Source: Mobula hypostoma
Taxonomy: Eukaryota
DNA length: 64,000 bases
Direction of reading: 5' to 3'
NCBI RefSeq assembly: GCF_963921235.1
Contig: NC_086097.1
Span: 38,256,001-38,320,000 of the forward strand
In this document: positions 2,346 through 49,360 of the stretch, piece by piece
Position numbering within the stretch: position 1 is the stretch's first letter
Layout: each line of letters opens with the position of its first letter
Program-made: the position numbers and the translations under genes
The notes under the pieces: model-generated
What the model saw: the letters and a program-made list of their open reading frames with translations, nothing else
Databases searched by the model: none
What the model was told of the DNA's origin: nothing

Positions 2346-4529
2346 AAGTCAGTGTTAAGCTAGTTTTGCTATGCTGATTGATTCTTCTCATTAACCTAAC
2401 ATTTTATGCTATTGCATTCCTTGCCACATCACTGTAACGGACTCGAGGTTTTCTAACTTTAAACCCTGAGGCTTTGGTGATTTTTCAGATCCTTGTAACA
2501 ATGTGTGTCCCTGCAGTTGTACCTTTCTTACTTTGCAGCCCTGCCAGTTCCTTGATGTTAAACAATTCATCAAATCTATGAATAATTTTAGCAACAGAAC
2601 ACTGTCAGCAATATCATTACTCTTGTTCAGAACAATAGATAACATGCCAGAATTCCAGTGGGGAGGGGAATGTGTCAAGAGGTCATCACTCAAGTCCCCT
2701 TTTCAGGCTGTGTTTCTTTGACCACTTGTAGTATTCACTGCTTCCTCTGTAAACTGCCTGTTGCATGTACCTCTTAGCTGAGACATGTGGTACCAGCCAT
2801 TAACAGAGGCAAATTTTCCCTTTAATTTCCTTTTGGAGAGTTTCTGCTGGCCTATAAGTTTTTTTCAGATTTTCCTTCCTAAGCTTATTTTTTTTGTGGA
2901 GCCTGTCATGGTACTTTATCTTGTAATGCCTTCTAGTGCTGTATTTCTTGTAAACAACATTGGTTTCCAAACAAAACAATCAAATAATTTTATTGATGTG
3001 AAAGACATTGTAATAAAGGTCAAAGCACATTTTTAAAATTAAATCTGCTACATCCTGCATCTATCTTCTGTTAAATTGATTGGGCATAATATGGTACATG
3101 GAGACAAGAAGTCTGCTGTAGACTGGGAACTGTTCCATGCATTCTGTTGAGGCCTATTGCTGTTTGTCTTTTATCTCAGTTGTTTTTGTGATGACCTTTT
3201 GTGAGGCATCAAATGATAACAAGTTTGTATATTTTTCTGCAGTGCATTGTCATATTGCGTGTTCTTGGAATAATTTAATGAGTACTAAATTGATCTGTGC
3301 AATCAGTTTTCAAAAAGCATTTGTCAGGGGACTGGTCAGTAAATTAATTTGGCTGCAGTCTGTGGATAGGCCATACTTGTGGACTCCAGTTCTGCCGCAT
3401 TTCATTGTAATGAATTACCTTCTGCTATGTGGCAATCAAAGGAAACTTCTACAATAGCACAGAAGTAACTGTGCAACTTTCAGAGAAAGGTGAACTTTGA
3501 AGGACGAGGTGAGCTTGTGCTCCTCATGGGAAAATGTCGTGGGTTACTTGACATCCACGTGAGGCAGGAGACAAACCTTGATATAATGTCACATCTGAAA
3601 TATTGGCACACTCAACCTGTAGCCATAGGTAAACTATCAATACAGATGGTGCTGTGCAATCTCAAGTCTGAGCCAGAAGTACAACCAGTCAAACTGACGT
3701 AAATAACTTGGTTGTTATCTTTATTCTCGTAGACTGAAGTTTATCTCATCACAGATTTTAAAGGGAAGAACAATAAGGAATTGCTGAAAGTCGTAAATTG
3801 AAGACATTTGTAGTGAATATTTGATTCCATTTAAAAAGTTTGCTTTTACACATTAATTTTGCAGTTGCTCACACATTTGATCCTCAGTGAATATTGCTAT
3901 AAAATACAATGGGAGAAAAAAAGAAATCAGTTATAAACAACATAACTTTACAGATGTAGTCTTGTGTGATTGGTCAGCCATTTATAATTTTTTTCGGAAC
4001 TTTCTATTATCTGATTGACCAGTCATTATGATCAATCTTGTGAATCTACATTTCAAGTTGTTTTGAGTAAGTTTAACCAATATAAGCAATTATCCCTTAA
4101 TTTGCATTCCCATCTGTCTCAAATTATTTGAAAATTTCTCTAATTGGGACTAATTGTGCAGCTAGCCATATTGAAATCCAAGTAGTGGCAAATTCCCTTT
4201 AAACACAGCCCTGTAAGAAAAAGCAAAAATAATGATTTTAAGAAAAAAAGATAAGATTAGAAAAACAGTAAACTAGATATTACCAAGGATATAGTTATTT
4301 TCTTGGCATGCTAGTCTATTAGATGCACATCAGTGTGGCAGTATTACTCTTTACATGACTGTGCCTATGAGCTTAGTATGGTATTATATTTGTTACTGCC
4401 ATTGATGGGAAATTTACTGAAACACATCTATTTTGGAACCTAGTTTGAGTAAATGTTGCTGGAATGGTTCAGCAACTGTACCACTACCCGTGGATGTGAC
4501 AACTGCTGGATAATTTTTTTTTCTTTTGA

Positions 4530-4745
<216 letters not shown>

Positions 4746-4769
4746 TGAAGAATATATAAACATAATGAC

Positions 4770-4870
4770 TTAAGTCCTGATGGAGGGACTGGGCCCCAAA
4801 CATTAACTGTTTATTCCCACCCATAGATGCTGCCTGACCTACTGACCACCTCCAGCACATTATTTGTTGC
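4770..4870 (+). repeat. Degenerate Penelope pLTR-derived short repeat
   Basis: gtcctgatggaggg...ccaaaac...atagatgctgcctgacct...ctccagca, similar to the Penelope 3' end at 17345-17444. Confidence 0.65.
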
Positions 4871-4904
4871 TATAGTGGTTAAGTAATTGGCCAAACCCTG
4901 CAGA

Positions 4905-5191
4905 GAACACACAAAAGTTGCTGGTGAACGCAGCAGGCCAGGCAGCATCTCTAGGAAGAGGTACAGTCGACGTTTTGGGCCGAGACCCTTTGTCAGGACT
5001 AACTGAAAGAAGAGCTTTCTAGTTTCTAGCTCTTCTTTCAGTTAGTCCTGACAAAGGGTCTCGGCCCAAAACGTCGACTGTACCTCTTCCTAGATATGCT
5101 GCCTGGCCTGCTGTGTTCACCAGCAACTTTTATGTGTGTGTGTGTTGCTTGAAATTCCAGCATCTGCAGATTTCCTCGTGTTTGCGTTTTT
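4905..5191. mobile_element. Penelope pLTR-derived palindromic insertion with 12-bp TSD
   Basis: Inverted arms 4913-5016 and 5028-5131 (2 mismatches); flanking direct repeat AAACCCTGCAGA at 4893-4904 and 5192-5203. Confidence 0.9.
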
Positions 5192-42124: not shown

Positions 42125-42419
42125 GGTGTGGCCAAGTGGTTAAGGCATTTGTCTAGTGATTTGAAGGTCGCTAGTTCGAGCCTTGGTGAGGCAGTATGTG
42201 TGTCCTTGAGCAAGGCACTTAACCACACATTGCTCTGCAGTGACACCGGTGCCAAGCTGTATGGGTCCTAATGCCCTTCCCCTGGACAACATCAGTGGCC
42301 TGGAGAGGGGAGACTTGCAGCATAGGCAACTGCTGGTCTTCCATACAACCTTGCCCAGGCCTGCGCCCTGGAAACCTTCCAAGGCGCAAATCCGTGGTCT
42401 CATGGGACTAACAGATGCC
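42125..42419 (+). mobile_element. Full-length tRNA-derived SINE
   Basis: A box TGGCCAAGTGG, B box GTTCGAGCC, central gtgtccttgagcaaggcacttaac; TSD TATC(A/G)GGAATA (42114-24, 42420-30). Confidence 0.9.
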
Positions 42420-42474
42420 TATCGGGAATAAGCATCACTTAATCAACTAAACTTGTTACTCGTTATATACACCT

Positions 42475-44632
42475 GTTAGGGTGCATTCTCCAGTTGCCTT
42501 ATAAGGTAACCATAGCCTTCAGCCAGGAGCAGATGTCATCAGGTGGTTCCTAACCTTCACCGAGTGTTTCAACCCTTAACCACGACACTCTCCAGTTGAT
42601 GGGCCGGCAGTGGTGGCCAAATCACTGCCCGTCTGCTCCTGGCTTCCAGCTCCCCTCCTCTCGCCTACTCCAAATCCAACAAGAAGCTTGTTCTGCCTCT
42701 TCCCTCATCCTACGAGCTGTTCCTTTCGTCCAGGCCCAGATCTGACAACAACCGCCATGCTGATTTGGCTGGAAAACCTCTGAAGCCGATCTCCACAGGG
42801 AACAACCGTGCCTACCATCCCTTGTCTTTACACTCCTGCAGTAAGGGCTGGTACTTCAAGGCCTTTCTCTTGTGGGCCCCTTCCCATCCCTCCTCCCACG
42901 GCACAGTCAACTCAACCAGAATTATTTTCTTGTCTTCCGTTGATCACAGTACAATGTCCGGGCGTAGGGTTGTGTGCACCACATCCGGGAACTGCAGCCT
43001 CCTTCCCACATCGACCCTCATCTGCCAGGACCTGGCTGTTAGCAGCAGATTGGGCTTTGGTTGTTTGGTCACGAAAGGCCTGGCTCCCTCTTTGATGAAG
43101 GTGATGGCCTTCCTCAGATCTGTGCCAGCCATCCTCTTCTTGCATCTCTCCCGCTCTAGTGTGTCAGCAGGAGCCAGAAGCACCTTATCATGGCGCCACC
43201 TATACCGTCCTTGAGTTAGAGCTGTTTTACACCTGGACAGTATATGAGCCAGTGTCCCCTTCTGACCACAGAGCTTACAGTTCAGGTCCTCTCTCATCCC
43301 CCATGTGTACAGATGTAATGGTGAAGGGTGTCATACACAGATCACAAGAGGAAGGAAATACAGAAGGGCTCAGGGCTCCGGGCTCCAGTCTCCATAACTC
43401 TGCCCATGAGATCTTGCGCTTGGGCAGATCCCATTTTGTCCAGGCACCTTCGGACTCTTGTTCCACTTCTCTTCCTCACGGATCCATACTTCTGCCTGTA
43501 TCATGTCTCGCCTGTTCCTTATGCTTGCGTTTCCCCACTTCTGGAAGTGAACTGAGCCGACGCCTTGCCGCCCAATGCAGGGGTTGCCAATGATATCTCG
43601 CAGCTTCAGAGAACACACTGCCTCCTCCACAGCTGCATTGGCTGCCCACTTGCACCCAGATCTGGTTGTAATGCCTGCTTGCTTTACCAAGATATCATTG
43701 GAATCTCTCAAGCTTAATAAAGCTCTGCATTTTGCCACCTTGAATTCCTCCACAACAGATGACAGAGGAAGCTGCAGTTGCCCAGAACGAATGTAGAGGC
43801 CCACTGAAGAGAAGCTTGGGGGAACTCCCAACCATCTCCATAGGTGCTTGTTAGTTTTCCTCTCGATGCCCTCTACGGCAGTCATGTGGAATTCATAATG
43901 TATGAAGAGCCAGAGAAGCCTGGGCAGAATGCCTTATTGGTATAGCCAGGTCTTGAATTTACCCGGAAGTTCGGATTTGTCGATCTTCTTCAGCCATTCC
44001 TCTGTCTGCTTCACAGCATTGGTGACATTGGCCCCATCTGTCAGTGACACATTAAACCACTTCCCCAAGCATTTTATCGGGTTATCTTCAATGGAAGGGA
44101 TGACCTCACCCTGAACCTGGAGGCTAAACTTGCTAGTAACTTTGTCGTTTCTGATCACCATGCACCTGGACTTCTTGGCCTTGAAGGACATCCTCGCCCA
44201 AGTGGCTACATTACCCAGGGTTTCCAATACCCATCTTGCTTGGGCATGTGACACAGTTGTTATAGTGATGTCGTCCATGAATCCTTGTAGAGCCGGCTGA
44301 ACAATGCCTGACTCCAGCATAGGGCCGCGGATTACATCTTCTGCTGCTGATAATAGGAGGTGCATTCCCATAGTAAATAGGATGGGGGAGATGGTGCACC
44401 CTGTTGGAATCCCCTTCTGGAGGTCCTGCCAACTAGTTGTGAAATGGGCTGATGTAAATCTGGGTTTGAATCCTCCTAGGTAGCTGGTGATCATGTCTCG
44501 AATAGCCACTGGGATGTAGTAGTGGTGGAGTCCTTCTAGGATGAGGTCATATGGAATAGACCCATAGGCGTTCGCGAGGTCTAACCAGACAACTGTTAGG
44601 TCGCCTTTTTTCTGCTTGCCCTCACGGATCAA
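42475..44632 (-). mobile_element. Hero-clade (R2-group, restriction-like endonuclease) non-LTR retrotransposon, 5'-truncated and disabled
   Basis: RT: WLDLANAYGS, GIPTGCTISPILF, FMDD. Zinc knuckle CKLC..HILSRC, RWRHDKVL. RLE: RPDIVL..VELTVPWE..K..KY. Ends SWKPGADGQ-TGA (42622-24). Several stops and frameshifts. Confidence 0.85.
42531..42597 (-). ncRNA. Candidate non-circularly permuted hammerhead ribozyme in the Hero 3' UTR
   Basis: Minus strand: GAGTG-TC-GTGGTT-aagggtt-GAAA-CACTC-ggtgaaggttagg-AACCAC-CTGATGA-catct. Helix III GAGTG/CACTC, helix I GTGGTT/AACCAC, intact core, GUC triplet. Confidence 0.7.
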
Positions 44633-45858
44633 ATAGATTATTCTTTATGAATTCAGATGAGGGTTCTTGTCTGAACAGCTTGAATGATTGTATCAAAGTT
44701 GTTCATTGTCATTGTTTATTGTATTCACTGGTTCAGTGAAAACTCACTCGTAGCAGTATCGCAGGCATATGATGTCCTATAAGTAGCATTCACAAATAAA
44801 AAAACAGATTATGCACAATTTTTTTTTAAAAAAGAACACAATTAGAAAAGGTCTATTTTAGTCCAAAGTGATCATAGTGTTGCTAGACTGTAGTAAATAA
44901 AGGGTAAAGAACCAAATAGTTGAAAGGAAGTAGCTGTTCTTGAACTTGGTGGGACTTTGGGCTTCTGTACATCCTGTCCGATGGTATTTATGTGAGGATG
45001 GGGATCTTAGATGATGGATGGTGTCTTGGGACAACATTTCCTTGTGGATACTACCAATAGTGGAGAGGAATGTGCCCAGATGATGTACCAGACTGAGTCC
45101 ACTACTCTCTTCAGCTTTTTGGGCTCTTACAGATTTGTATGCCATGATGCGACCAGTCAGTGATTTCAGCAGTGCATTTGGAGAAATTTGTCAGTGTTTG
45201 GTGACAAGCTGAACCTTTTAAACTTCTTTTAAAAAAAGATGATAGGCTGCCTTGTATTTGCATCCATAAGCTGGGCCTAGAACAGGACATCAGATATGTT
45301 AACATTTAGGAATTTAAAGCTGCTAACTCTCTCCACTACTGATCCTCCAATATAGATTCATAAATCTTCACCCTTCTTCCGCTTCTTGAAGTCAAAAATC
45401 AGCTCTTTATTTTTACTGAGTGAGAGGAAGCTTTTGCAGCATCGCTCAACTAAATGCTCTATCTCATTGCTGACTCATTACTAGCTATGATTCATCCAGC
45501 AACAGTGGTGTCAGTAGCAAATTTATGTATGCTGTTGGAGCTGTACTTAGGCTCACAGTCAGAGGAGATAGTGTTACCAATGCTCGCTAATTTAAATATG
45601 TTTAAATTTTTAAACAGTTACAGAGGGCCTTGCTGCAAAACCATTTTGTCAGTTATTAGGCCACTCCACTGAAGCAAGCCTCCCAGTGGAAGATGGCATC
45701 TGGGAACTGAGTGACTGTGACACAGAAGAAGGTGTTTTGACTTGTCTAGTTGAAGTTGCCTCTCAGAGAAATTTCATCAGTCCCATTCCTCTTTATTTGT
45801 CTATATCCTTGACTCTTATCGTGGGCCTGTATTCTCTGGAATTCAGAAGAATGAAGGG

Positions 45859-46738: not shown

Positions 46739-47648
46739 TAGACAATAGGTGCAGGAGTAGGCCATTCGGCCCTTTGAGCCAGCACCGCCATTCACTGTGA
46801 TCATGGCTGATCATCCACAATCAGTATCCAGTTCCTGCCTTATCCCCATAACCTTTGATTCCGCTATCTTTAAGAGCTCTATCCATCTCTTTCTTGAAAG
46901 CATCCAGAGACTTGGCCTCCACAGCCTCTGGGGCAGAGCATTCCATATATCCACCACTCTCTGGGTGAAAAAGTTTTTCCTCAACTCTGTTCTAAATGGC
47001 CTACCCCTTATTCTTAAACTGTGCCCTCTGGTTCTGGACTCACCCATCAGCGGGAACATACTTCCTGCCTCCAGCGAGTCCAATCCCTTAATAATCTTAT
47101 ATGTTTCAATAAGATCCCCTCTCAGCCTTCTAAATTCCAGAGTATACAAGCCCAGTCGCTCCAATCTTTCGACATATGACAGTCCCGCCATCCCGGGAAT
47201 TAACCTTGTGAACCTACGCTGCACTCCCTCAATAGCAAGAATGTCCTTCCTCAAATTTGGAGACCAAAACTGCGCACAGTACTCCAGGTGTGGTCTCACC
47301 AGGGCCCTGTACAGCTGCAGAAGGACCTCTTTGCTCTTACACTCAATTCCCCTTGTTATGAAGGCCAGGATACCATTAGCTTTCTTCACTGCCTGCTGTA
47401 CTTGCATGCTTGCTTTCAGTGACTGATGTACAAGAACACCTAGATCTCGTTGTACTTCCCCTTTTCCTAACTTGACTCCATTTAGATAATAATCTGCCTT
47501 CCTGTTCTTGCCACCAAAGTGGATAACCTCACATTTATCCACATTAAACTGCATCTGCCATGCATCTGCCCACTCACCCAGCCTGTCCAAGTCACCCTGC
47601 ATTCTCATAACATCCTCCTCACATTTCACACTGCCACCCAGCTTTGGA
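46739..47648 (-). mobile_element. Young CR1 3' fragment
   Basis: Near-continuous frame WQMQFNVDKCEVIHFG...LYRALVRPHLEYC...FFTQRVV; 3' end gacaataggtgcaggagtaggccattcggccc. Confidence 0.93.
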
Positions 47649-49360
47649 CTGGGCATGAAGGGATACAGGGAAGAAGGCAGGAGATTGGGGCTGAGAGGGA
47701 AATGGATCAGCCATGATGAAGTGTCAGAGCAGACCAAGTGACCTAATTCTGCTCCTATTTTTTATGGTCTTGTTGTCTTTCCTTTCTTTCACATGCCCAT
47801 AAATTCCTTTTTCTCATTCTCTTGCCCCTTACGTATACTACAGGATAATATGCTGTAATCATTTGGCCTACCTTGCACTGTAGAAGCCGAATACAGCACA
47901 CGATAGAAAACCATGCAATTATTTGGACATGGTGCTGATGTCAGGACTGAACATGGATCCTTGCTACTGTGAAGTAGCAGTTATTGCATCATTGAGCAAG
48001 TGGAGTAAGCAGTGTGGTACATGGGCGGGAAGGCAGTGCTATTGGGCAATAGAATGTTATGACGAAATGATTTTTATTTTAATGGGTCTACTGGTAAAGG
48101 TAAAAATCTTTGAGTAGTTTGAGCTAGAGGGCCTTCTTCACCCTTGAGTACCTTACGATCAAGTGAATGCAGTATGTAAGGTTGTCATTTGACTTATAAC
48201 ATTTCTGAAAATGTAATAAATAGATTTGTTAGTGATAATGGAACAAATTACTTTTATGACACTTATTAAGTGTAGGTAAGGCATTTTCTAATTGCTTGAC
48301 TCAGATGTTGACATAAGGATTGGCTCATCTGATTAATGCAGATTGGAAATCAGATAAAGTAATTTGTAACACAGAGAAAGCAAATTATTTGACTGCCAAC
48401 AGCAGTTTTGATGAAATTCTGAAAGCTATTCATTGCGATAGAGCACAAATTAAAAAAAATTAGAGCCATAGAATCACCATGCACAAGAGCTAGCCCTTTG
48501 GCCCATCGAGTCTGTGCTCCTGTTAATGGAGCACCAGACTTGGTCCCAATCCCCTGCTAATTTCTCATTGACTGAAACTATTTTCCCTGAAATATTTATC
48601 CAATTCCTTTTTCATAGCTTTGTGTTGCCAGAAGTGAGTTGCTGATCTTTGTGAAGCTTTTCCCCTCATCCCCATTGTATCCTTGGCCTTGTATCCTTGT
48701 ATCATTGATATGTTTTTGCCTTGTCTTGGACTGAGCGTTGAGTCCCACTATCTACCCTGTCAAAACTGGTCATAATCTTGCACTATGTCAAATTTCCTGT
48801 TAGCAATCTCTGCTTCAGGGAGTTTTTCCATTCTGGTCTTACGGGTGAAATTTCATATCTCTGGAATCATTTCAGGAAATATTTTCTGCGTTGTACAGAA
48901 GGTTCTGTCCTCAAAAGTTGATCAGATGAGGTCTAAATATGTTTAATGGTGGTTCAATATAATGTGCTTACTGTTTTAGTGGAGAGGATGAATTTGGGAT
49001 GCAGAAAATGAAGTAATTTAATGCAGGAAGGAAAATTTGTCTGGAGCAAAGTGGTTTGTTTCCTAAAACAAGATTGGTTGAGGAAAGGGTTGCCAATGTA
49101 GACCAGCTAATTGAGCTGGGAAGTCAAGTTGGGCATATTAAGTAGGTGCAGATGTAGAAGCAGTTTGCAGCTTCGTTTGAGGAGACAAACAAAGGAGCAA
49201 AAATATTTGGTGTGGGTGGAAAAGCAGCCAACAGACTAATTTGTAGAGATTATAAGTAGTTTACTTCTGAATGTCAGTTGAGAGGTAAACTTCTCTGGGT
49301 GGAAAGCATTTAGATTGTATTCAGTAAAAGTAAAAAGTAGTTGCAATGTGCCTAAGTATA

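What the first reader, a model, noticed from the sequence alone, without database searches (positions are those of the whole stretch)
42531..42597. Permuted (pseudoknotted) hammerhead ribozyme in the 3' UTR of a Hero retrotransposon
Seen: about 30 nt after the Hero stop codon, the element's sense (minus) strand has every hammerhead core element: CUGAUGA (plus 42536-42), GAAA (42567-70) and a GUC triplet (42586-84). It also has a perfect 6-bp helix I (GTGGTT/AACCAC) and a 5-bp helix III (GAGTG/CACTC) stacked on the A15.1-U16.1 pair, each in exact register with the core. The order is IIIa-UC-Ia-IIb-GAAA-IIIb-Ib-CUGAUGA-IIa, which is none of the circular permutations (types I-III), so standard descriptors would miss it. 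Helix II is weak (C.U mismatch, then AUCU/GGGU). Known: R2-group elements usually carry 5' HDV-like ribozymes; I recall that non-circularly permuted hammerheads have been reported, so novelty needs checking. Inference: Hero may process its transcript 3' end by self-cleavage, with the cut between 42584 and 42583.
Basis: partly seen in the sequence, partly recalled or inferred. Interest (0 to 1): 0.9.

Follow-up and report, generated by a model that had tools for sequence, protein, structure and literature searches.

The report
Rewired hammerhead ribozyme in Hero retrotransposons
A hammerhead-type self-cutting RNA, wired in an unusual strand order, sits at the end of the gene of a jumping element and is preserved helix by helix in distant relatives of that element, so it is very probably real and new in form, although cutting has not been shown.

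Summary
The order is S-G-C, a non-circular permutation published in 2023 from metatranscriptomes.

It is not chance. I fetched 78 metagenome contigs encoding relatives of the element's protein (41-74% identity). A model built from the motif hit 46 places, all on the ORF sense strand. 34 of 36 ORF ends with enough downstream sequence carry it. Every catalytic-core position is kept in the hammerhead pattern: N7 is free and H17 is never G.

Six helices covary: 86.5% of cells pair, against 57% in shuffles and 34-41% with partners slid.

The bases after A9 form a 9-15 bp helix (L) with the last codons of the ORF. The true stem II, with G10.1-C11.1, uses a strand upstream of the cleavage block, just after a hairpin that holds the stop codon. 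Stem III continues through a kink-turn-like loop into a further helix. The full domain is window 42643-42522.

The window copy is a dead, 5'-truncated member of a family with at least 500 copies. Cleavage and function are untested, and no genomic copy starts at the predicted cut. This is a new variant of a known ribozyme class.

The parts
42630..42643 (-). L' : upstream strand of the closing helix L. It lies in the last codons of the ORF.
   Evidence: It pairs with 42535-42522 (13 of 14 pairs in the window). Covariation in relatives: own duplex energy -26.0 vs -18.7 kcal/mol for mismatched partners, 0 of 5000 permutations as good. All 14 pairs show changes on both sides.
42606..42629 (-). Hairpin X (7 bp, 10-nt loop with the palindrome UGGCCA). 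It holds the stop codon UGA at 42624-42622.
   Evidence: The MFE fold recovers it. All 7 pairs covary, 89.7% of cells paired. Loop palindromes among 45 distinct rows: TGATCA 18, TGGCCA 9, TGTACA 1.
42601..42605 (-). Stem II 5' strand (GGCCC); its first base is G10.1.
   Evidence: It pairs with 42575-42571. Own -8.8 vs cross -6.1 kcal/mol, 0 of 5000 permutations. 91.5% of cells paired although this helix was not in the search model.
42594..42599 (-). P3.1 5' strand (the helix beyond stem III).
   Evidence: It pairs with 42555-42550. Own -10.0 vs cross -6.7 kcal/mol, 0 of 5000 permutations. All 6 pairs covary. The window copy has one C.A mismatch.
42591..42593 (-). GGA: the non-bulged strand of the kink-turn-like internal loop.
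   Evidence: G(2n) is kept in 31 of 44 rows and A(1n) in 34 of 44.
42584..42590 (-). Block S: stem III 5' strand GAGUG, then U16.1 and C17. The predicted cut is between 42584 and 42583.
   Evidence: U16.1 is kept in 44 of 44 rows. H17 is C 13, U 17, A 14, G 0. Stem III is 96.5% paired.
42578..42583 (-). Stem I 5' strand GUGGUU.
   Evidence: It pairs with 42548-42543. All 6 pairs covary and 87.6% of cells pair, although this helix was not in the search model.
42567..42575 (-). Block G, first part: stem II 3' strand (GGGUU in the window, GGGUC in most copies; the last base is position 11.1), then G12 A13 A14 A15.1.
   Evidence: C11.1 is kept in 43 of 45 rows, G12 in 43 of 45, A13/A14/A15.1 in 45 of 45. 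The T at window 42571 is a CpG-decay deviation from the family majority.
42562..42566 (-). Stem III 3' strand CACUC.
42556..42561 (-). GGU-GA-A: the bulged strand of the kink-turn-like loop.
   Evidence: G(1b) is kept in 39 of 44 rows and A(2b) in 32 of 44. The strand polarity matches the kink-turn consensus, which I recalled and did not test.
42550..42555 (-). P3.1 3' strand.
42536..42548 (-). Stem I 3' strand AACCAC, then C3 U4 G5 A6 U7 G8 A9.
   Evidence: C3 is kept in 42 of 44 rows; U4, G5, A6, G8 and A9 in 44 of 44. N7 is T 24, C 10, A 9, G 1.
42522..42535 (-). L: downstream strand of the closing helix. It starts directly after A9.
   Evidence: The helix starts 0 nt after A9 in 24 of 26 relatives.
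42452..42521 (-). The 3' tail of the element, down to its 3' end. There is no poly(A); it ends in a short TAACAAG-like repeat.
   Evidence: Flanks of 30 copies diverge after ...GTAACAAG. Homology to a reference copy ends near reference position 335.
42622..44644 (-). The remains of the ORF of this 5'-truncated, frame-shifted copy (RT, CCHC and RLE region).
   Evidence: Stop-to-stop ORF pieces. RVT_1 E=4.4e-17 at 43934-44644, and a weak zf-RVT match (E=0.0051, below Pfam's cut-off) at 42944-43330.

Best explanation
Window 42643-42522 (minus strand) is one decayed copy of a conserved ~125-nt RNA domain carried by Hero-like retrotransposons, that is, single-ORF non-LTR elements with RT and a restriction-like endonuclease. 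The domain is a hammerhead ribozyme with rewired strands.

The 5'-to-3' order is: L' - hairpin X - stem II 5' strand (G10.1...) - P3.1 - GA - stem III 5' strand - U16.1 H17 | cut | stem I 5' strand - AA - stem II 3' strand (...C11.1) - GAAA - stem III 3' strand - NNU-GA - P3.1' - stem I 3' strand - CUGANGA - L.

The blocks therefore run S, G, C as in type-SGC hammerheads. In addition, the C block is broken between A9 and G10.1 by two inserted helices, L and X. A kink-turn-like loop in stem III folds helix P3.1 back, so that its end can join the far end of stem I through a single nucleotide.

Shown here: the anatomy, its covariation, and conservation of the core in the pattern specific to hammerhead catalysis.

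Inferred: the RNA cuts itself after H17 (window 42584|42583). This leaves the ORF RNA with a 2',3'-cyclic phosphate and a 3' piece with a 5'-OH. In the family's majority sequence the two pieces would stay held together by about 37 base pairs.

Most likely role (inference, about even odds): trimming read-through or head-to-tail array transcripts into unit-length element RNA. This is the job that HDV-like ribozymes do for R2. L' and X are made of the last codons and the stop codon, so the core cannot fold while a ribosome occupies the ORF end.
For: 1. Recurrence. A covariance model built only on the nested helices found 46 matches in 341 kb searched on both strands, all on the ORF sense strand. 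Seventeen of them are sequences not used to build the model. 34 of 36 ORF ends with >=200 nt downstream carry a match. A strict pattern scan found 25 of those 36, and most of its misses are single-lesion decayed copies.

2. Core. In 45 distinct rows: U4, G5, A6, G8, A9 are kept in 44 of 44; C3 in 42 of 44; G12 in 43 of 45; A13, A14, A15.1 in 45 of 45; U16.1 in 44 of 44. N7 is any base. H17 is C, U or A and never G. C11.1 is kept in 43 of 45. G10.1-C11.1 is G-C in 36 and G-U in 2 of 43.

3. Helices. 86.5% of 1749 cells pair, against 57.3% in shuffles (0 of 500 as high) and 34-41% with partners slid. 42 of 44 pairs change on both sides. The raw MAFFT alignment gives 83.3% against 58.1%. Stems I and II were not in the model, yet they pair in 89.4% of cells against 59.2% in shuffles, with covariation 0.696 against 0.173.

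4. Permutation tests. L: -26.0 vs -18.7 kcal/mol. II: -8.8 vs -6.1. P3.1: -10.0 vs -6.7. Each gave 0 of 5000 permutations as good.

5. The window copy scores 106.9 bits. Its nested fold is -51.3 kcal/mol, z = -2.94, and recovers L, X and II.

6. Setting. 18 of 26 motifs with >=900 nt downstream are followed within about 30-430 nt by the start of the next ORF on the same strand.

7. Precedent. Type-SGC hammerheads cleave at the analogous site in vitro (PMC10085705, sections read).
Against: - There is no direct evidence of cleavage. No RNA run was on record, and only assembled contigs could be laid, which cannot show RNA ends.
- In a position-ordered sample of 81 genomic copies of this family, 0 begin at the predicted 5' end of the 3' product. 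The two nearest begin 6-9 nt upstream of it. Cut RNA is therefore not a common template as such.
- An insertion of two helices between A9 and G10.1 has, to my knowledge, never been tested in a hammerhead. Eckert et al. assumed the blocks cannot be interrupted.
- Stem II is only 5 bp.
- Helix L of the family majority has an A.C mismatch at its second pair.
- In the one Penelope-like element tested, the hammerhead needed protein and was dispensable for insertion in vitro (PMC11167929, passages). Conservation therefore does not tell us the role.
- The window copy itself is degraded: G10.1.U11.1, and a C.A mismatch in P3.1.
Confidence: 0.85

Rival explanations
1. The domain is a hammerhead-shaped but non-cleaving RNA. 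Its job is to be the 3' recognition structure that the element's reverse transcriptase binds to start target-primed reverse transcription, as the R2 3' UTR does. Any cleavage is vestigial.
For: Genomic copies carry the uncut site, and 0 of 81 sampled copies start at the cut. The domain lies 70-80 nt from the element's 3' end in this family. R2 proteins bind structured, pseudoknotted 3' UTR RNA (PMC12222951; only its abstract in the search listing was seen).
Against: A protein-binding fold does not explain why exactly the 13 catalytic positions are invariant, why position 7 is free, or why position 17 is any base but G.
Confidence: 0.1
2. Same ribozyme, different anatomy. Helix L, which starts directly after A9, plays the part of canonical stem II. 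In that case the G block, not the C block, is the interrupted one, and the 5-bp helix next to GAAA is an extra helix of a four-way junction.
For: L begins 0 nt after A9 in 24 of 26 relatives and is the strongest helix. The two descriptions are topologically equivalent around the A9/G12 position.
Against: The pair next to G12 in the 5-bp helix is G-C in 36 of 43 rows, as G10.1-C11.1 is in canonical hammerheads. The first pair of L is Y-R: the base after A9 is C in 18, U in 20, A in 4 and G in 2 rows.
Confidence: 0.2
3. The core motifs and two short helices co-occur by chance in a retrotransposon 3' UTR.
For: Simulated random sequence yields motifs with I>=6 and III>=5 (G-U allowed, any block order) 0.12 times per 64-kb window. 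Within this genome all copies are 92-99% alike and give no information on covariation.
Against: The same arrangement is found in 40 of 78 independently fetched loci whose proteins are 41-74% identical to the query. It is always on the sense strand at the ORF end, and all six helices covary.
Confidence: 0.01

Closest known systems
Type-SGC hammerhead ribozymes (HRIMA-1 motif and type-SGC variants; Eckert, Friedrich, Weinberg & Weinberg, NAR 2023, PMC10085705)
   Same: The block order is S, G, C. The three stems cross one another as pseudoknots. A 2-3 nt linker joins stem I to the stem II strand that precedes GAAA. The conserved core and the predicted cut site are the same. Sections 13-15 and 18 and the supplement's search descriptors were read.
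   Different: - Here the stem II 5' strand is not behind A9 but upstream of block S.
- A9 runs into a long closing helix made with the ORF end, and a hairpin X precedes G10.1.
- Stem III carries a kink-turn-like loop and an extra helix.
- The helix that bridges stems I and II in type SGC is not found (-4.15 own vs -4.45 cross).
- The published RNAMotif descriptor needs CUGAUGAG or CUGAUGAUG. That is met by neither the window nor the family (0 vs 502 pattern hits), and the base after A9 is G in only 2 of 44 relatives.
- Their sequences all come from metatranscriptomes (Supplementary Note 1). These come from a vertebrate genome and from retrotransposon contigs.
Hammerheads of Penelope-like elements and retrozymes (type I; Cervera & de la Pena 2014; Lunse et al. 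2017; PMC7229834; PMC11167929)
   Same: A hammerhead on the sense strand of a retroelement that often stands in head-to-tail repeats. The role in mobility is unresolved.
   Different: Those are canonical type I (often minimal and dimeric) and lie in the pLTR or at the ORF start. This one is non-circularly permuted, much larger, and sits at the ORF end of an RLE-type non-LTR element. Only the passages of PMC11167929 shown were read. The other papers were seen as search listings or are recalled.
HDV-like ribozymes at the 5' ends of R2 and other non-LTR retrotransposons (Eickbush & Eickbush; Ruminski et al. 2011; PMC3774820)
   Same: A self-cleaving RNA built into a retrotransposon of the R2 group, thought to free element RNA from a co-transcript. 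In arrays this motif lies about 100-400 nt upstream of the next ORF.
   Different: A different ribozyme class, and a different position relative to the element's own ORF. For PMC3774820 only the abstract in the listing was seen.
Kink-turn (k-turn) motifs
   Same: A canonical stem, a 3-nt bulge, then G.A and A.G pairs and a second stem, with the bulge on the strand that runs 5'-to-3' from the canonical stem (one search counts).
   Different: The signature is present in only about 70-75% of rows. The other rows have a bulge on the opposite strand. The consensus is recalled from memory, and neither folding nor protein binding was tested.

Membership tests
Hammerhead ribozyme (class) | Core C3 U4 G5 A6 N7 G8 A9 | tested here: met
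   Window 42542-42536 is CUGAUGA. In relatives C3 is kept in 42 of 44 rows, U4/G5/A6/G8/A9 in 44 of 44, and N7 is free.
Hammerhead ribozyme (class) | G12 A13 A14 and the A15.1-U16.1 pair | tested here: met
   Window 42570-42567. G12 is kept in 43 of 45 rows and A13-A15.1 in 45 of 45. The 15.1-16.1 pair is U-A in 44 of 44.
Hammerhead ribozyme (class) | Cleavage-site nucleotide H17 (not G), immediately followed by stem I | tested here: met
   C 13, U 17, A 14, G 0 of 44, in rows found by a model that did not require it.
Hammerhead ribozyme (class) | Stems I, II and III in register with the core and supported by covariation; G10.1-C11.1 | tested here: met
   I 87.6%, II 91.5% and III 96.5% of cells paired, with changes on both sides in 6/6, 4/5 and 5/6 pairs. 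However, G10.1 is not covalently next to A9.
Hammerhead ribozyme (class) | Match to curated hammerhead models (Rfam) | tested here: not met
   No hammerhead hit at gathering score in the window or in 20 loci, and none at E<=10 in 42300-42800. This is expected for a permuted, pseudoknotted form.
Hammerhead ribozyme (class) | Site-specific, Mg2+-dependent self-cleavage | not testable with these tools
   No raw RNA reads could be obtained.
Type-SGC hammerhead (Eckert et al. 2023) | 5'-to-3' order of blocks S, G, C | tested here: met
   taking the CUGANGA part as block C.
Type-SGC hammerhead (Eckert et al. 2023) | Blocks uninterrupted: stem I' - CUGANGA - stem II strand contiguous; fits the published RNAMotif descriptor | tested here: not met
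   Descriptor read. A9 is followed by helix L. G10.1 lies upstream of block S. The family has 0 copies with G after CUGAUGA against 502 with C.
Type-SGC hammerhead (Eckert et al. 2023) | Helix joining the other sides of stems I and II | tested here: not met
   The linker before stem I' shows no specific complementarity to the bases after the core. That linker pairs with the region upstream of stem III instead, forming P3.1.
HERO clade of RLE non-LTR retrotransposons | Single ORF with RT followed by a CCHC motif and a PD-(D/E)XK restriction-like endonuclease | tested here: met
   RVT_1. The alignment of 20 homologues shows C..C..H..C, RHD, RPDIVL and ELTVPWE blocks after the RT. These motif names are recalled from R2 literature. 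The C-terminal piece gave no PDB match to R2.
HERO clade of RLE non-LTR retrotransposons | RT phylogeny groups it with Repbase HERO references | not testable with these tools
   No reference sequences were held. Indirect support: homologues occur in fishes, amphioxus and bivalves, and HERO families are reported from fishes and amphioxus and are mostly not site-specific.
Kink-turn | C stem, 3-nt bulge, tandem G.A/A.G, NC stem with the correct strand polarity | tested here: inconclusive
   G1b 39/44, A2b 32/44, A1n 34/44, G2n 31/44. The consensus is recalled and no structural test was possible.

The most novel reading that the evidence does not exclude
Hero elements may be autonomous 'retrozyme-like' LINEs. 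Transcripts of their head-to-tail arrays would be cut by this ribozyme into unit-length RNAs. The two ends of each unit carry the two halves of the ribozyme domain and stay paired, so they can be rejoined into circles. Reverse transcription round such RNA would make the arrays. On this reading the domain is also a switch. Its closing helix and hairpin X are the last codons and the stop codon, so a terminating ribosome must leave before the core can form. The conserved palindromic loop of X (UGAUCA / UGGCCA / UGUACA) would let two RNAs kiss. The kink-turn would be what makes a non-circular permutation of a three-way-junction ribozyme sterically possible.
Probability: 0.2. Interest if true: 0.9.

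Novelty: new variant of a known kind. Interest (0 to 1): 0.82.

Why it matters
- Non-circularly permuted hammerheads were known only from metatranscriptome contigs of presumed circular-RNA agents. This would place one in animal genomes, at several hundred to more than a thousand copies in one vertebrate, as a conserved part of an autonomous retrotransposon clade.
- It breaks the working rule that the three hammerhead blocks cannot be interrupted. Searches built on that rule are therefore blind to this form, and probably to others.
- It offers a concrete structural answer, a kink-turn in stem III, to the question Eckert et al. left open: how the far end of stem III can be joined to stem I.
- It gives the R2 group a second ribozyme class beside the HDV-like one.
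- It provides a tractable system, an ORF-linked and covariation-rich ~125-nt domain, for asking what ribozymes do for retroelements.

Tried and rejected
Duplex energies own -2.48 vs cross -2.42, 2160 of 5000 permutations as good. A register-limited pair count gave a weak signal (3.0 vs 2.6 pairs of 5; 4 of 5000) that I cannot explain. This pairing is superseded by helices L and II.
- **Eckert-type bridge between stems I and II.** No signal.
- **Within-genome covariation.** The 91 copies usable for the comparison (of 105 collected) are 92-99% alike. Differences are mostly CpG decay, so they carry no information.
- **Pile-up of 5' truncations at the cut.** 0 of 81 position-ordered copies start there. 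Thirteen starts are spread over reference positions 241-300.
- **RNA evidence.** No RNA holder was listed. Four runs of other organisms were laid, all as contigs, so they give no ends. They show related copies 80-95% alike covering the motif. One thin loose end (3 contigs, median 12 nt) hints at a variant with a diverged stem I' region and C3->U.
- **Fold of the 3' UTR alone** (42625-42452): z = -0.25. This was misleading because it left out L'.
- **Rfam.** No hammerhead hit.
- **Full-length copies and the 5' end of the element in this genome.** Not resolved.
- **C-terminal 231 aa against solved structures.** No R2 endonuclease match.
- **tRNA-like stretch in L139 and L144.** ARAGORN finds no tRNA.
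- **Earlier findings of this scan.** Nothing on this genome or sequence. The word search returned unrelated bacterial type III hammerheads.
- **Literature.** 'hammerhead' + 'Hero' + 'non-LTR' as whole words gave 0 papers. 'type-SGC' returned only Eckert 2023. 'hammerhead' + 'hero' + 'retrotransposon' gave 4 incidental papers. Searches showed no report of a hammerhead in Hero or other RLE elements. Subscription journals and Repbase Reports are not in the library.
Full report
**The observation**

- Helix I is six Watson-Crick pairs. Helix III is five pairs plus A15.1-U16.1.
- The stop codon of a frame-shifted RT-bearing ORF is at 42624-42622. RVT_1 matches 43934-44644 at E = 4.4e-17.
- The block order is S-G-C.
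- Rfam finds nothing: 0 matches at gathering score in the window, and no hammerhead among the 4 matches at E<=10 in 42300-42800.

**Prior knowledge**

The order S-G-C is the 'type SGC' non-circular permutation of Eckert et al. 2023 (PMC10085705). I read the outline, sections 7, 13, 14, 15 and 18, and parts of the supplement.
- That form cleaves in vitro at the analogous site.
- All their examples come from metatranscriptomes (Supplementary Note 1).
- Their RNAMotif descriptor requires CUGAUGAG or CUGAUGAUG, followed directly by the stem II strand.

**Chance**

In 400 simulated 128-kb sequences, motifs with I>=6 and III>=5 appeared 0.12 times per window in any order and once in 400 in S-G-C order. 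G-U pairs, CUGANGA and a +-150 nt span were allowed. The window's real hit is the only one of that quality. Given the size of the whole scan, this alone would not be decisive.

**The family in this genome**

- The stretch is a high-copy repeat. There are 1379 first-look candidates, and the 40 that were scored are 96-100% identical.
- A 22-mer from the tail occurs 529 times against 0 for the reversed control. A 21-mer spanning P3.1'-stem I'-core occurs 502 times.
- Copies share a 3' end about 70 nt past the motif, without poly(A).
- They are 92-99% alike and differ mostly by CpG decay, so they say nothing about structure.
- The window copy deviates from the majority at 42571 (C11.1 to U), and at 42599 and 42551.
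- In a position-ordered sample of 81 copies (L031-L110), none starts at the predicted 5' end of the 3' cleavage product. The two nearest starts are 6-9 nt upstream. Thirteen starts are spread over the last 95 nt.

**Relatives from elsewhere**

- The RT piece of a longer copy has homologues at 46-78% identity in fishes, amphioxus and bivalves, and on many ~3.7-kb metagenome contigs (556 proteins at E<=0.001, 120 listed).
- An alignment of 20 of them shows an N-terminal zinc finger, RT, CCHC and a PD-(D/E)XK-like block. This fits the R2 group and, by host range and lack of site specificity, HERO (passages). I could not test that by phylogeny.
- With this alignment I fetched 78 metagenome loci whose products are 41-74% identical to the query.

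**The motif recurs**

- A strict scan (CUGANGA, GAAA, U-H, I>=4, III>=3) found compact S-G-C hits on the sense strand in 29 of these 78 loci. 25 of the 36 ORF ends with >=200 nt downstream carry one.
- Most of the 11 misses proved to be the same motif with one lesion, for example G12 to A in L133 and L161, or single stem mismatches in L117, L139 and L147.
- A covariance model built from 29 sequences on the nested helices only found 46 matches in 341 kb searched on both strands, all on the ORF sense strand. Seventeen were not in the training set, and 34 of the 36 ORF ends are covered.

**Anatomy**

Permutation tests, pairing each sequence's segments with those of other sequences, showed four things.
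- The bases directly after A9 pair with a segment in the last codons. This is helix L: own -26.0 vs cross -18.7 kcal/mol, 0 of 5000 permutations as good, starting 0 nt after A9 in 24 of 26.
- L' is followed at once by a hairpin X, and X by five bases that pair with the five bases before GAAA. This is stem II: -8.8 vs -6.1, 0 of 5000. Examples are GCUCC/GGAGC, GACUC/GAGUC, GGGUC/GACCC, GGCGC/GCGCC and GCCGGG/CCCGGC.
- The bases upstream of stem III pair with the linker before stem I'. This is P3.1: -10.0 vs -6.7, 0 of 5000.

**Formal counts**

| Measure | Observed | Shuffled | Partners slid |
|---|---|---|---|
| Cells paired, model-guided alignment, 45 distinct rows | 86.5% of 1749 | 57.3% (0 of 500 as high) | 34-41% |
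| Covariation score, same alignment | 0.602 | 0.170 | <=0.12 |
| Cells paired, raw MAFFT alignment | 83.3% | 58.1% | 34-43% |
| Cells paired, stems I and II only, not in the model | 89.4% | 59.2% | 32-46% |
| Covariation, stems I and II only | 0.696 | 0.173 | <=0.127 |

In the model-guided alignment, 42 of 44 pairs change on both sides.

Core conservation:
- U4, G5, A6, G8 and A9: 44 of 44. C3: 42 of 44.
- G12: 43 of 45. A13, A14 and A15.1: 45 of 45. U16.1: 44 of 44.
- N7 is free (T 24, C 10, A 9, G 1).
- H17 is C 13, U 17, A 14, G 0.
- C11.1: 43 of 45.

The G10.1-C11.1 pair is G-C in 36 and G-U in 2 of 43 rows.

This is the conservation pattern that hammerhead catalysis demands, and I know of no other reason for it.

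**Further features**

- The loop between stem III and P3.1 has GA on the 5' strand and NNU-GA on the 3' strand in about 70-75% of rows. The polarity is that of a kink-turn (consensus recalled). P3.1' joins stem I' through one nucleotide, so a sharp bend there would solve the steric problem that Eckert et al. raise in their Discussion.
- The loop of X holds a six-base palindrome: TGATCA in 18 rows, TGGCCA in 9, TGTACA in 1.
- L' and the 5' arm of X are coding. In the window the stop codon lies inside X.
- The whole window domain folds at -51.3 kcal/mol with z = -2.94, and the MFE recovers L, X and II. The 3' UTR alone, lacking L', had z = -0.25.

**Setting and function**

- In the metagenome contigs, 18 of 26 motifs with >=900 nt downstream are followed within roughly 30-430 nt by the start of another ORF on the same strand. 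These are head-to-tail arrays, or circularly permuted assemblies of them.
- In L116 the two neighbouring units are only 71% alike. Arrays therefore arise at least partly by successive insertion.
- In arrays, one cut both ends one unit's ORF RNA and starts the next unit's leader.
- In this vertebrate most copies are dispersed and 5'-truncated.
- After a cut, the two products of the family's majority sequence would remain joined by about 37 base pairs (L, II, III, P3.1 and I).
- Together with the absence of copies starting at the cut, this means the templates that were reverse-transcribed were either uncut or were read across the nick.
- In the one Penelope-like element tested, the hammerhead is protein-assisted and not needed for insertion in vitro (PMC11167929, passages). 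That is a warning that the role may be subtle.
- I commit to self-cleavage after H17 (0.85). With about even odds, I commit to trimming of co-transcripts into unit-length RNA as the role.

**Novelty**

The ribozyme class and the S-G-C order are known. Four things are new in the library I could search:
- the host, an autonomous RLE retrotransposon clade in animal genomes;
- the interruption of a core block by two helices;
- the kink-turn-like extension of stem III;
- the overlap with the ORF end.

Repbase Reports and subscription journals were not searchable.

**Verdict**

This is a new variant of a known kind. Cleavage is still to be shown.

Noticed in passing
window 42616-42611 (loop of hairpin X); the same loop in L111-L175: The loop holds a six-base palindrome that changes only in ways that keep it a palindrome: TGATCA in 18 rows, TGGCCA in 9, TGTACA in 1 of 45. 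This looks like a kissing-loop dimerisation site.
   Followed up: partly
L139:2415-2490 and L144:3280-3338: A stretch resembling tRNA D- and T-arms (GGTTCGAGTC) lies between the stop codon and the ribozyme domain. In L139 it supplies the upstream strand of helix L. ARAGORN calls no tRNA.
   Followed up: partly
metagenome loci L112, L115, L125, L127, L128, L138, L143, L146, L149: The contigs are about one unit long (~3.6-3.7 kb). They start at arbitrary points of the element, and some have terminal redundancy. This suggests tandem arrays of near-identical units or circular molecules.
   Followed up: partly
L116:111-2625 versus L116:3841-6347: Two adjacent head-to-tail units are only 71% identical, so this array was not made by simple duplication.
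   Followed up: no
window 42452-42470, and the 3' ends of L001-L110: The element ends in a short TAACAAG-like repeat. In many copies the first flanking bases read TAACA, which hints at a variable terminal repeat or a microsatellite-like target.
   Followed up: no
L035 (G000:C1:38860378-38870377), stored 3352-5169 minus: A 606-aa open frame with a second, different RT domain (RVT_1 E = 4.1e-34) lies between two copies of the family that are 5.7 kb apart. It is probably another retroelement nested there.
   Followed up: no
window 46811-47761 minus: A 316-aa open frame looks like the C-terminal part of a CR1/L2-type LINE ORF2. This is recalled resemblance only, not tested.
   Followed up: no
window 42625-42578 minus: In the fold of the UTR alone, UUGGCCACCACU pairs with AGUG..GUGGUUAA. 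This alternative hairpin would sequester the 5' strands of stems III and I, and could compete with the ribozyme fold.
   Followed up: no
Read-laying table 7, run X11 at window 42564: Contigs of another organism carry a variant in which the 22 bases between GAAACAC and UGAUGAC are only about 12 of 22 alike and C3 reads U. It may be a decayed or divergent subfamily. The support is thin: 3 contigs, median 12 nt.
   Followed up: no
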